Assembly (NCBI GenBank): GCA_963836205.1
Contig: CAWIIV010000014.1
Span: 1-64,000, forward strand
Length of the DNA stretch: 64,000 bases
Reading direction: 5' to 3'
Source of the DNA: an uncultured Acidimicrobiia bacterium
GTDB taxonomy: Bacteria; Actinomycetota; Acidimicrobiia; Acidimicrobiales; AC-14
Positions 60,262 to 60,425 of the stretch are shown here, in pieces; the first letter of the stretch is position 1, and the number at the start of each line of letters is the position of its first letter. Position numbers and translations under genes: made by a program. Below the pieces are notes generated by a model. It was not told where the DNA came from and did no database searches. It worked only from the letters and a program-made list of their open reading frames with translations.

Positions 60262-60425
60262 CGGCGGGGGGCCCGGACCGATGTCGAGTGCGCTACGACG
60301 TCCTTCGGGAACGTCGCTTCTAGCATGACGCCGGGTCCCTCCCACTGAAGCGAGCGCGAACGTGGTTGCCTGACCCGCCCTCGGGCGAGGTCGCGTATGT
60401 CAGCGTGTGCCGCGAGGGAGGCCGC
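60262..60425 (+). ncRNA. Predicted bridge/seek RNA in the right non-coding end of the IS110
   Basis: Two stem-internal-loop-stem modules with guides matching the target (CGAGTGCGCTA, TCTAGC) and the donor junction (GGTTGC, TCAGC); ends approximate. Confidence 0.75.

What the first reader, a model, noticed from the sequence alone, without database searches (positions are those of the whole stretch)
60262..60425. Bridge-RNA-like guide readable in the IS110 3' end, with loops matching both target and donor DNA
Seen, target loop: CGAGTGCGCTA (60285-60295) matches the reconstructed target CGGGTGCG-CT-A at 10 of 11 positions across the junction. It is followed by an inner hairpin CGACGTCC-TTCG-GGAACGTCG and then TCTAGC (60319-60324), the exact reverse complement of target G-CT-AGA, all closed by GGGGGCCCGG/CCGGGTCCCT. 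Seen, donor loop: GGTTGC (60364-60369) matches donor GGTTG-C, then inner hairpin GACCCGCCC-TC-GGGCGAGGTC, then TCAGC (60400-60404), the reverse complement of donor G-CT-GA. Known: this left-guide / stem / right-guide layout is how IS110 bridge RNAs specify recombination. Inference: a programmable RNA-guided recombinase from a high-GC actinobacterium with preferred target near GAGTGCG-CT-AGA and the RNA downstream of the gene. The mechanism class is known; this member and its specificity are predicted here.
Basis: partly seen in the sequence, partly recalled or inferred. Interest (0 to 1): 0.9.

Follow-up and report, generated by a model that had tools for sequence, protein, structure and literature searches.

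The report
Bridge RNA downstream of IS110 transposase
A jumping gene in a high-GC actinobacterium carries, just after its recombinase gene, a folded guide RNA whose loops match both its insertion sites and its own ends, as in known bridge-RNA systems; it is a well-supported but fairly ordinary new member of that class.

Summary
Window 58757-60520 is a 1764-bp IS110-family element with CT on each side. It has three near-identical copies in its genome.

Its 3' non-coding end holds a roughly 167-nt structured RNA (60260-60426) with two internal loops.
- A covariance model built from 16 homologues found it in 69 places. In 67 of them it lies 5-152 nt downstream of the transposase gene on the same strand.
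- 31 of 42 stem pairs show compensatory changes.
- The variable loop letters track each element's own flanks. Permutation gave 0 of 20000 on both sides.
- The core dinucleotide, the donor guides and the crosswise "handshake" letters co-vary as in IS621.

- The left target guide is effectively 5 nt plus CT plus A (60288-60295), not 11 nt.
- The right target guide is 60319-60323.
- The right donor guide is split, 60395-60403 with two bulged letters.
- The predicted target is GTGCG-CT-AGA.

The architecture is IS110/IS621-type, but it sits in the right end, where IS1111-type guides sit, and there are no subterminal inverted repeats. Expression, protein binding and reprogramming are untested. This is a new member of a known, heavily mined class.

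The parts
58755..58756 (+). Left copy of the CT core dinucleotide (junction of left flank and element)
   Evidence: CT precedes the element in all 3 genomic copies. In relatives it is CT or TT, in step with the guides.
58757..58841 (+). Left end (85 bp, starts GATACAC). Its first 5 letters are the right-donor site read by the right donor guide.
   Evidence: The three copies are identical from 58757. GATAC(A/C)C starts are conserved in relatives.
58842..60245 (+). IS110-family recombinase gene, 467 aa (DEDD RuvC-like domain plus Tnp domain)
   Evidence: Pfam PF01548 (E 8.9e-24) and PF02371 (E 4.1e-14). PDB matches to IS621 8wt6 (E 5.1e-10) and ISCro4 9t56 (E 1.5e-9).
60260..60426 (+). [quoted passage not shown]
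   Evidence: The model R1 hit at 60255-60432 scores 178 bits, E 4e-33. 31 of 42 pairs have compensatory changes and 94.3% of cells are paired. G-U pairs fit only this strand.
60267..60340 (+). Target-binding loop module: closing stem 60267-60276/60331-60340, 4-bp helix 60282-60285/60327-60330, inner hairpin 60296-60316
   Evidence: Helices 2-5. In helix 2 all 10 pairs have changes on both sides.
60288..60295 (+). Left target guide GTGCG + CT + A, same sense as the left flank plus core (it would pair with the bottom strand)
   Evidence: Own-flank match at -1 to -5 is 1.00, 0.97, 0.87, 0.61, 0.61, against 0.87, 0.41, 0.31, 0.23, 0.25 for other elements' flanks. There is no signal at -6 or -7.
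60319..60323 (+). Right target guide TCT + AG, the reverse complement of CT-AGA (60318 is a weak fourth position)
   Evidence: Own-flank match at +1 to +4 is 0.97, 0.97, 0.81, 0.45, against 0.97, 0.50, 0.23, 0.26 for others. All 3 genomic copies have CT-AGA.
60324..60324 (+). Handshake letter of the target loop (C, complementary to the donor's -1 G)
   Evidence: In 21 informative insertions this letter fits donor -1 in 20 and target -1 in 0.
60350..60413 (+). Donor-binding loop module: closing stem 60350-60357 with 60405-60413, inner hairpin 60371-60393
   Evidence: Helices 6 and 7, with 5 and 4 pairs changed on both sides.
60364..60369 (+). Left donor guide GGTTG + C, same sense as the right-end tip plus the first core letter
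   Evidence: It co-varies with the right-end tip across donor classes: GGTTG-C, GGTTG-T, (C/A)(G/A)TTA-C, AACAG-C, GACTT-C, CACGCG-C.
60395..60403 (+). Right donor guide GU-[AU]-G-UCAG. It pairs with CT-GATAC of the donor top strand, with 60397-60398 bulged and G60399 opposite T.
   Evidence: The reverse complements in all classes read core + 3 nt + 2 variable or unmatched letters + 2 nt, fitting each class's own left end. IS621 has the same split arrangement (PMC11208158 passages).
60404..60404 (+). Handshake letter of the donor loop (C, complementary to the target's -1 G)
   Evidence: It fits target -1 in 17 of 21 informative insertions and donor -1 in 1 of 21.
60502..60507 (+). TTGACA, a -35-like box 13 nt from the right-end tip. 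It would face the left end after circularisation (junction promoter, inferred).
   Evidence: TTGAC occurs 46-84 nt after the RNA in 51 of 55 distinct downstream regions, against 13% of background 180-nt windows. No complete sigma-70 promoter is found in the linear form.
60246..60520 (+). Right end (275-bp non-coding region) that holds the RNA
   Evidence: The three copies are identical up to 60520.
60521..60522 (+). Right copy of the CT core dinucleotide, followed by the right flank AGA

Best explanation
Window 58757-60520 is an active or recently active IS110-family insertion sequence. Its 3' non-coding end encodes a bridge RNA (seekRNA) of about 167 nt, on the same strand as the recombinase gene.

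Inferred mechanism, by homology with IS621:
1. The element excises as a circle, joining its right-end tip, CT and its left-end start.
2. A conserved TTGACA near the right-end tip then faces the left end and helps drive a transcript of the recombinase gene plus the RNA.
3. The RNA is cut out of the 3' part of that transcript and bound by the recombinase.
4. Its first internal loop reads the target. GTGCG-CT-A (60288-60295) pairs with the bottom strand of the left target half. TCT-AG (60319-60323) pairs with the top strand of CT-AGA.
5. Its second loop reads the circle junction. GGTTG-C (60364-60369) pairs with the bottom strand of the right-end tip. The split guide 60395-60403 pairs with the top strand of CT-GATAC.
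6. Single letters after each right guide (60324, 60404) pair crosswise with the other DNA after top-strand exchange.
7. Recombination at the CT core inserts the element at sites resembling GTGCG-CT-AGA.

Shown here: the conserved structure, its position and strand, and the covariation of every guide with the matching DNA. Inferred: transcription, processing, protein binding and catalysis.
For: (1) Protein. It has the DEDD and Tnp domains. It matches the IS621 and ISCro4 bridge recombinases of solved structures.

(2) Copies. Three copies differ by one base, each flanked by CT, at ...GTGCG-CT-AGA...GGGCG-CT-AGA and ...GAACG-CT-AGA.

(3) Presence in relatives.
- The RNA model R1 found 69 hits in 95 sources. 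67 of them lie 5-152 nt (median 70) downstream of the recombinase match on the same strand.
- It also hits downstream of 41-48%-identical genes on Streptomyces, Mycolicibacterium and Rhodococcus plasmids, with E 6e-13, 7e-14 and 1.5e-5.

(4) Structure.
- In 16 sequences, 17 of 52 RNAalifold pairs are compensatory.
- In 56 distinct sequences, 31 of 42 pairs are compensatory and 94.3% of cells are paired. With partners slid by 1-3 columns only 34-49% are paired. 0 of 500 shuffles reach the observed values.

(5) Target guides.
- The longest common word between the left-guide slot and its own left flank plus core sums to 301, against 160.3 (sd 7.7) for permuted pairings.
- For the right-guide slot the sum is 284, against 175.2 (sd 6.6).
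- Both give 0 of 20000. The result holds within the closest subgroup and with one site per distinct guide, again 0 of 20000 each.

(6) Core. Five elements with TT instead of CT at both junctions have the change in all four guides.

(7) Donor guides follow six different end classes.

(8) Handshake letters. The target-loop letter fits donor -1 in 20 of 21 informative sites. The donor-loop letter fits target -1 in 17 of 21.

(9) The split right donor guide, with two unmatched letters and a G opposite T, mirrors IS621.

(10) The genome holds no unoccupied perfect GTGCGCTAGA. The one perfect site is the one occupied in the window.
Against: - There is no evidence that an RNA is made. No RNA run holds the sequence (see Tried and rejected), and no promoter or terminator was predicted in the linear form.
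- Single-sequence folding energy is not better than shuffles.
- No Rfam family matched.
- Only about 5 + 3 variable target letters co-vary, so specificity is low. Two of the three own copies mismatch the left guide at one or two of five positions.
- Exceptions among relatives: L050 mismatches its guides on both flanks, the right flank of L028 does not fit, and L031, L026, L034 and L032 fit at only 2-3 of 7 left positions.
- The control with the reverse complement of the left guide also exceeded its permutations (174 against 144.8, 0 of 20000). Subfamily structure and palindromic letters therefore contribute part of the signal.
- Related elements are not independent.
- Element ends were located with patterns I wrote myself.
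- Alignment A3 was fitted to the model's structure.
Confidence: 0.88

Rival explanations
1. The same letters act as DNA, not RNA. Single-stranded element DNA folds and pairs with target and ends, as the guide sequences of IS200/IS605 elements do, and no separate guide RNA exists.
For: Covariation alone cannot tell an RNA from a DNA strand of the same sense. No RNA data exist for this element (one search listed no RNA holder).
Against: The protein is homologous to IS621 and ISCro4, whose solved complexes hold a bridge RNA. The architecture matches the IS621 RNA in detail, including the split right donor guide and the handshake letters. Relatives of both IS110 and IS1111 types co-purify with RNA from their non-coding region (preprint 10.1101/2024.04.26.591405, abstract and sections read).
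Confidence: 0.04
2. The element belongs to the IS1111 group, whose seekRNAs are known to lie downstream of the transposase gene. The finding would then be a textbook IS1111 arrangement.
For: The long non-coding region and the RNA are downstream of the gene. This is the IS1111-group position according to PMC11208160 and the seekRNA preprint.
Against: - There are no subterminal inverted repeats. The best match between the two 45-nt ends is 4 nt, and 497 of 500 shuffles do as well.
- The protein has 467 aa, against 330-350 aa stated for IS1111 transposases.
- The guide complementary to the bottom strand lies 5' of the one complementary to the top strand. That is the IS110-type order and the reverse of the IS1111 type.
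- The loops match IS621 in detail.
- No tree with named IS1111 and IS110 references was built.
Confidence: 0.08
3. The conserved 3' structure is only a regulatory or stabilising part of the transposase transcript. Target choice would be made by the protein, and the guide-like matches would be by-products of shared ancestry of elements and sites.
For: Related elements often sit in related sites, so part of the permutation signal reflects kinship. The reverse-complement control was also above its null.
Against: - Closely related elements with different loop letters sit in correspondingly different flanks, and the signal holds with one site per distinct guide.
- The core change CT to TT appears in all four guides and at both junctions.
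- The sense control for the right guide shows no excess: 170 against 167.4, with 6489 of 20000 permutations as high.
- The crosswise handshake pattern is not expected from ancestry.
Confidence: 0.03

Closest known systems
IS621 bridge RNA and recombinase (IS110 group; Durrant et al. 2024, PMC11208160; Hiraizumi et al. 2024, PMC11208158)
   Same: - It has two loop modules in the order target-binding then donor-binding. Each is a stem, a left guide, a stem-loop and a right guide.
- Left guides have the sense of the top strand. Right guides are complementary to it.
- All guides share the CT core.
- The right donor guide is split, with two unpaired letters and a G opposite T.
- Handshake letters pair crosswise.
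- A -35-like box lies near the right-end tip.
- The recombinase has DEDD plus Tnp domains.
   Different: - The RNA lies in the right end, downstream of the gene, not in the left end upstream.
- An outer stem encloses both loops.
- The protein has 467 aa against 328 in the solved chain, and only the Tnp domain aligns well.
- Fewer target letters co-vary: about 5 + 2 + 3-4.
- The host has 71.4% G+C.
ISEc21 seekRNA (IS110 type; Siddiquee et al., preprint 10.1101/2024.04.26.591405)
   Same: The bottom-strand match lies 5' of the top-strand match. Natural reprogramming is seen between relatives. Some relatives target a conserved codon stretch of another IS family's transposase gene: ISEc21 targets IS3-family genes, and subfamily C here targets Mutator/IS256-type genes.
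   Different: ISEc21 has its non-coding region upstream. The element here has it downstream. The preprint notes that some IS110-family groups have a downstream region but, in the parts read, does not characterise them.
IS1111-group seekRNAs and bridge RNAs (ISEc11, ISPa11, ISKpn4)
   Same: [quoted passage not shown]
   Different: Those elements have subterminal inverted repeats of 7-17 bp, transposases of 330-350 aa, and the top-strand match 5' of the bottom-strand match. None of these holds here.
Catalogue-scale bridge RNA predictions (Durrant 2024 ISfinder survey; COMPASS preprint 10.64898/2026.10.21.760802)
   Same: They use the same kind of inference: a covariance model plus guide-to-DNA covariation. 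The results were 85.7% of IS110 and 93.0% of IS1111 ISfinder entries, and 32,190 loci under 86 models.
   Different: This report gives the letter-by-letter reading for this element.

Membership tests
IS110 family (DEDD recombinase insertion sequences) | N-terminal RuvC-like DEDD domain (PF01548) | tested here: met
   PF01548, E 8.9e-24, residues 29-187.
IS110 family (DEDD recombinase insertion sequences) | C-terminal Tnp domain (PF02371) with a conserved serine | tested here: met
   PF02371, E 4.1e-14. The Y-E-S motif (S340) aligns with Y-E-S of IS621. That this is the catalytic serine is my inference.
IS110 family (DEDD recombinase insertion sequences) | No terminal inverted repeats; the same core dinucleotide at both junctions rather than a target duplication | tested here: met
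   CT lies on both sides of all 3 copies. No inverted repeat between the ends exceeds chance.
Bridge RNA of the IS621 / IS110-group type | Two internal loops, each with closing stem, left guide, stem-loop and right guide | tested here: met
   7 helices, with 31 of 42 pairs compensatory.
Bridge RNA of the IS621 / IS110-group type | Target-loop guides co-vary with the left and right flanks | tested here: met
   0 of 20000 permutations on both sides. The signal is at -1 to -5 and +1 to +3(4).
Bridge RNA of the IS621 / IS110-group type | Donor-loop guides co-vary with the element's own ends | tested here: met
   Six end classes each match their own guides. This was judged by eye from a table, not by a statistical test.
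Bridge RNA of the IS621 / IS110-group type | A shared core dinucleotide is represented in the guides | tested here: met
   Five elements with core TT carry the change in all four guides and at both junctions.
Bridge RNA of the IS621 / IS110-group type | Handshake letters pair crosswise (target loop with donor, donor loop with target) | tested here: met
   20 of 21 and 17 of 21 informative sites. The definition is from PMC11208158.
Bridge RNA of the IS621 / IS110-group type | Encoded in the left end, upstream of the recombinase gene | tested here: not met
   67 of 69 hits lie 5-152 nt downstream of the gene.
Bridge RNA of the IS621 / IS110-group type | The RNA is expressed, bound by the recombinase and needed for recombination | not testable with these tools
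   No RNA run was listed.
IS1111 group | Subterminal inverted repeats of 7-17 bp | tested here: not met
   The best match is 4 nt, and 497 of 500 shuffles do as well.
IS1111 group | Long non-coding region and guide RNA downstream of the gene | tested here: met
   The left end is 85 bp and the right end 275 bp.
IS1111 group | Top-strand match lies 5' of the bottom-strand match in the RNA | tested here: not met
   Here the guide with top-strand sense (pairing with the bottom strand) is 5'.
IS1111 group | Transposase of about 330-350 aa | tested here: not met
   467 aa.
Rfam families | Match to any curated covariance model | tested here: not met
   0 matches at E up to 1 in 58600-60700.

The most novel reading that the evidence does not exclude
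This actinobacterial clade carries a bridge RNA of the IS621/IS110 design in every tested detail: left guide before right guide, split right donor guide, crosswise handshake letters. Yet the RNA sits in the right end, behind the recombinase gene, in elements without subterminal inverted repeats. The clade includes the window element, its relatives in Acidimicrobiia-type genomes and soil metagenomes, and 41-48%-identical elements on Streptomyces, Mycolicibacterium and Rhodococcus plasmids.

If so, the guide changed ends independently of the IS110/IS1111 split. It would be made as a 3'-UTR-derived RNA of the recombinase transcript. That would give a natural test of whether position and processing route matter for bridge recombination, and a high-GC-adapted system with about 50 naturally reprogrammed guide sets.
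Probability: 0.45. Interest if true: 0.5.

Novelty: new member of a known kind. Interest (0 to 1): 0.35.

Why it matters
Bridge RNAs are a known mechanism that is being developed as a genome-editing tool. This element adds a well-documented natural example from a 71% G+C actinobacterium.
- All four guides and both handshake letters are assigned to the base.
- About 50 natural retargeting events among relatives can serve as a ready-made specificity table.
- It shows that the IS621-type design also occurs in the right end of elements that are not IS1111-like. This bears on how the guide moved between ends during evolution.

It does not change the mechanism class, and large catalogues of such RNAs already exist.

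Tried and rejected
- Single-sequence folding of 60246-60522: z = -0.97, so no support either way.
- Rfam scan of 58600-60700 at E up to 1: nothing.
- Promoter and terminator scan of 58650-60650: 0 and 0.
- Expression: no RNA holder listed. Read laying was not used, because the best DNA holders shared under 0.2 of the words.
- A hairpin spanning the stop codon (about 60232-60257), seen by eye and as inverted repeat I12: RNAalifold on 15 relatives did not recover it and found no compensatory pair. Dropped.
- Subterminal inverted repeats: none.
- Protein search across 401 genomes of the class: only 3 with a close relative, the own genome included. It was too sparse to use, so metagenome contigs were used instead.
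- Model R1 across 151 genomes of the phylum: 3 with a match, the own genome included. One of the other two is the unpublished genome G538. Only this count rests on it.
- Literature search was badly posed (any two of six terms) and gave nothing relevant. Searches were used instead.
- I found no paper describing this clade or an actinobacterial right-end bridge RNA in searches. This is not proof that none exists. Supplementary tables were not open, for example the ISfinder table of PMC11208160 and the model lists of 10.64898/2026.10.21.760802, and they may bear on that claim.
- No structure prediction, complex prediction or tree with named IS references was run. Subgroup placement therefore rests on features, not on phylogeny.
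- Chance as an explanation was rejected.
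Full report
THE ELEMENT

- The ORF at 58842-60245 (+, 467 aa) carries the two domains of IS110-family recombinases: PF01548 (E 8.9e-24) and PF02371 (E 4.1e-14).
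- By sequence it matches the solved IS621 (8wt6, E 5.1e-10) and ISCro4 (9t56, E 1.5e-9) recombinases, mainly over the Tnp domain. A Y-E-S motif aligns with Y-E-S of IS621.
- A DNA search of the window's own genome (4.05 Mb, 25 contigs) found two more full copies, on contigs C15 and C6.
- Anchoring on the ends shows that all three share 1764 bp (window 58757-60520) and differ only at 59869. Each has CT immediately before and after.
- The three sites read ...GGGTGCG-CT-AGATC, ...AGGGGCG-CT-AGACG and ...AGAACG-CT-AGACC.
- The donor junction would be ...ACGGTTG-CT-GATACAC.
- The left non-coding end is 85 bp and the right one 275 bp.

THE OBSERVATION

On its own the region is not convincing.
- Its minimum free energy is no better than that of shuffles: z = -0.97, with 28 of 200 as good.
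- Rfam has no match.
- No promoter or terminator was predicted.

RELATIVES

- A scan of species-representative genomes gave 10 loci with 67-90%-identical proteins, mostly Acidimicrobiales genomes assembled from metagenomes.
- A scan of metagenome contigs with a 4-protein alignment (A1) gave 97 relatives, of which 80 were kept.
- The class-wide genome search was sparse: 3 of 401 genomes, the own one included.
- Sixteen 3' regions aligned well.

STRUCTURE

- RNAalifold on A2 predicted 52 pairs, 17 of them with compensatory changes.
- I removed the pairs between the left and right guides. These are complementary to each other by design, through the shared core, and never vary. I then built covariance model R1 with 175 positions and 42 pairs.
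- cmsearch over 95 sources gave 69 hits at E up to 0.01.
- 67 hits lie 5-152 nt (median 70) downstream of the recombinase match on the same strand. The two exceptions are a partial hit in L046 and a remnant beside the C6 copy.
- On the 56 distinct rows, 94.3% of cells are paired, against 34-49% when partners are slid by 1-3 columns. 31 of 42 pairs change on both sides, and no shuffle of 500 reaches any observed measure.
- The caveat is that this alignment was fitted to the model.
- Frequent G-U pairs (for example 20 G-U beside 24 A-U at one pair) fit only the + strand, so the folded strand is the sense strand of the gene.

In the window the RNA is laid out as follows:
- outer stem 60260-60264 with 60422-60426;
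- target module 60267-60340;
- linker;
- donor module 60350-60413.

TARGET GUIDES

For each hit I located the element ends with patterns for the conserved end sequences, which are independent of the target guides. I then took 10 nt of flank on each side.

Across 51 distinct left and 52 distinct right insertion sites:
- The summed longest common word between the left-guide slot and its own left flank plus core was 301, against 160.3 (sd 7.7) for permuted pairings.
- For the reverse complement of the right-guide slot against core plus right flank it was 284, against 175.2 (sd 6.6).
- Both gave 0 of 20000.
- Control, the right guide in sense: no excess (170 against 167.4; 6489 of 20000).
- Control, the reverse complement of the left guide: a smaller but real excess (174 against 144.8; 0 of 20000). 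I attribute this to palindromic letters and subfamily structure, so kinship contributes part of the signal.

Within the closest subgroup, with 31 sites per side:
- Own-flank identity is 1.00, 0.97, 0.87, 0.61, 0.61, 0.16, 0.26 at -1 to -7. Against other elements' flanks it is 0.87, 0.41, 0.31, 0.23, 0.25, 0.22, 0.25.
- Own-flank identity is 0.97, 0.97, 0.81, 0.45, 0.35, 0.26 at +1 to +6. Against other elements' flanks it is 0.97, 0.50, 0.23, 0.26, 0.29, 0.26.
- With one site per distinct guide (23 left, 21 right) the permutations still give 0 of 20000.

The effective guides in the window are therefore GTGCG-CT-A (60288-60295) and TCT-AG (60319-60323, with 60318 weak).

The window copy fits 5 of 5 and 3 of 3 positions. 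The other two copies fit 4 of 5 and 3 of 5 on the left, and 3 of 3 on the right.

Exceptions among relatives:
- L050 fits on neither side.
- The right flank of L028 does not fit.
- L026, L031, L032 and L034 fit at only 2-3 of 7 left positions.

CORE, DONOR GUIDES AND HANDSHAKE

- Core. Five elements (L068, L035, L034, L033, L019) have TT instead of CT at their junctions. They carry the matching change in the left target guide (..TTA), right target guide (TAAC), left donor guide (GGTTGT) and right donor guide (TCAA).
- Left donor guide. It follows the right-end tip in six classes: GGTTG-C, GGTTG-T, (C/A)(G/A)TTA-C, AACAG-C, GACTT-C and CACGCG-C.
- Right donor guide. It reads core plus three letters, then two letters that do not match (the first varies freely), then two more letters of the left end. 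In the window this is G60395 U [A U] G U C A G60403 against CT-GATAC, with G60399 opposite T.
- IS621 has the same arrangement in its solved structure: two flipped-out uridines and a G-T pair in its right donor guide (PMC11208158, passages).
- That paper also defines handshake guides, the letters just 3' of each right guide, which pair crosswise after strand exchange.
- Among 21 insertions where donor -1 and target -1 differ, the target-loop letter fits donor -1 in 20 and target -1 in 0. The donor-loop letter fits target -1 in 17 and donor -1 in 1. These 21 sites come from three subfamilies and are not independent.

HOW IT LIKELY WORKS

By homology, the element excises as a circle. The RNA's donor loop holds the junction, its target loop holds a site like GTGCG-CT-AGA, and the recombinase exchanges strands at CT.

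- A TTGAC box sits 46-84 nt after the RNA in 51 of 55 distinct downstream regions, against 13% of background windows. In the window it is TTGACA at 60502-60507, 13 nt from the tip.
- After circularisation it would lie 15-17 nt from the left-end start. This fits the junction promoters described for this family (PMC12288879 passages; PMC11208158).
- That the RNA is then made as the 3' part of the recombinase transcript and processed is inference.

Target supply in the genome:
- The genome has 71.4% G+C and is about ten-fold depleted in CTAG (2044 found, 21116 expected from base composition).
- It holds 36 unoccupied CGCTAGA sites.
- It holds no unoccupied GTGCGCTAGA. The single perfect site is the one occupied in the window.

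WHAT IT IS IN TERMS OF KNOWN FAMILIES

The mechanism class is known.
- Durrant et al. predicted bridge RNAs in 85.7% of IS110-group and 93.0% of IS1111-group ISfinder entries. They lie mostly in the left end for IS110 and in the right end for IS1111 (PMC11208160 passages).
- Siddiquee et al. showed seekRNAs for both types and stated four points (preprint abstract and sections 5, 8, 11 and 12):
  - the order of the top-strand and bottom-strand matches is reversed between the types;
  - IS1111 transposases have 330-350 aa and subterminal inverted repeats;
  - the IS110 subgroup has 395-455 aa;
  - some IS110-family groups have a downstream non-coding region.

The element here has the IS110-type guide order, a 467-aa protein and no subterminal inverted repeats, yet a downstream RNA.

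The same RNA model hits downstream of 41-48%-identical genes on Streptomyces, Mycolicibacterium and Rhodococcus plasmids. This placement is therefore a trait of an actinobacterial clade and not of one element.

I file it as an IS110-family bridge RNA of the IS621 design in the right end, a new member of a known kind. I did not build a tree with named references. Of PMC13626964 I saw only the abstract.

A recent preprint reports 32,190 predicted bridge RNAs under 86 models (10.64898/2026.10.21.760802, passages and section 2.4). This clade may already be in such catalogues, but supplementary lists were not open.

VERDICT

- Function as an expressed, protein-bound, reprogrammable RNA is untested.
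- Interest is moderate to low because the class is known and heavily mined.
- The end-swap of an IS621-type RNA, and the natural retargeting table, are the parts worth keeping.

Noticed in passing
L003 (own genome contig C6, about 607649-611482, minus strand): The C6 copy sits inside a degraded relative that is 86-87% identical. Only the relative's left end plus about 100 codons, and its right end with half of the donor loop, remain. At least 121 bp to the right of that old right end are a 100% direct repeat of DNA about 420 bp to the left of its left end. The repeat begins exactly at G-CT-AGAG, which looks like an aberrant recombination at the core.
   Followed up: partly
L070, L071, L073-L075, L077, L078, L088 (metagenome contigs): A subfamily of relatives is inserted at the same place in Mutator/IS256-type transposase genes (PF00872, profile position about 213; E 4e-42 and 3e-35 for two right flanks). 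Their left guides (AAGTA, AAGTT, AAATA) follow the synonymous variants of that site. These are insertion sequences that target another insertion sequence.
   Followed up: partly
window 56091-58790 and 60523-61279: The window copy interrupts or abuts a large ORF with many WD40-like repeats and a Roc/Ras GTPase domain (E 1.7e-16). Downstream lies a DUF4365 region split over two frames near 61000-61090, which is a frameshift or an assembly error. After precise excision the upstream frame would not continue in the frame of the first DUF4365 part.
   Followed up: partly
whole genome G000: CTAG is about ten-fold under-represented: 2044 found against 21116 expected from base composition at 71.4% G+C. 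The element's target contains CTAG, so few sites are available.
   Followed up: no
L050 and L056: Two related elements share the same right flank (AGACAAACGAG) but have different left flanks. L050 fits its own guides on neither side, which suggests a rearrangement or a recombination between copies.
   Followed up: no
L046:10-126: A partial hit of the RNA model, covering the target loop only, lies about 1.1 kb upstream of a relative's transposase gene. It may be the tail of a neighbouring element.
   Followed up: no
window 60337-60344 and 60413-60420: The linker CCTCCC and the 3' stretch GGGAGG are complementary. The UCCC and GGGA parts are nearly invariant in relatives. They could form a further helix enclosing the donor module, but there is no covariation to test it.
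   Followed up: no
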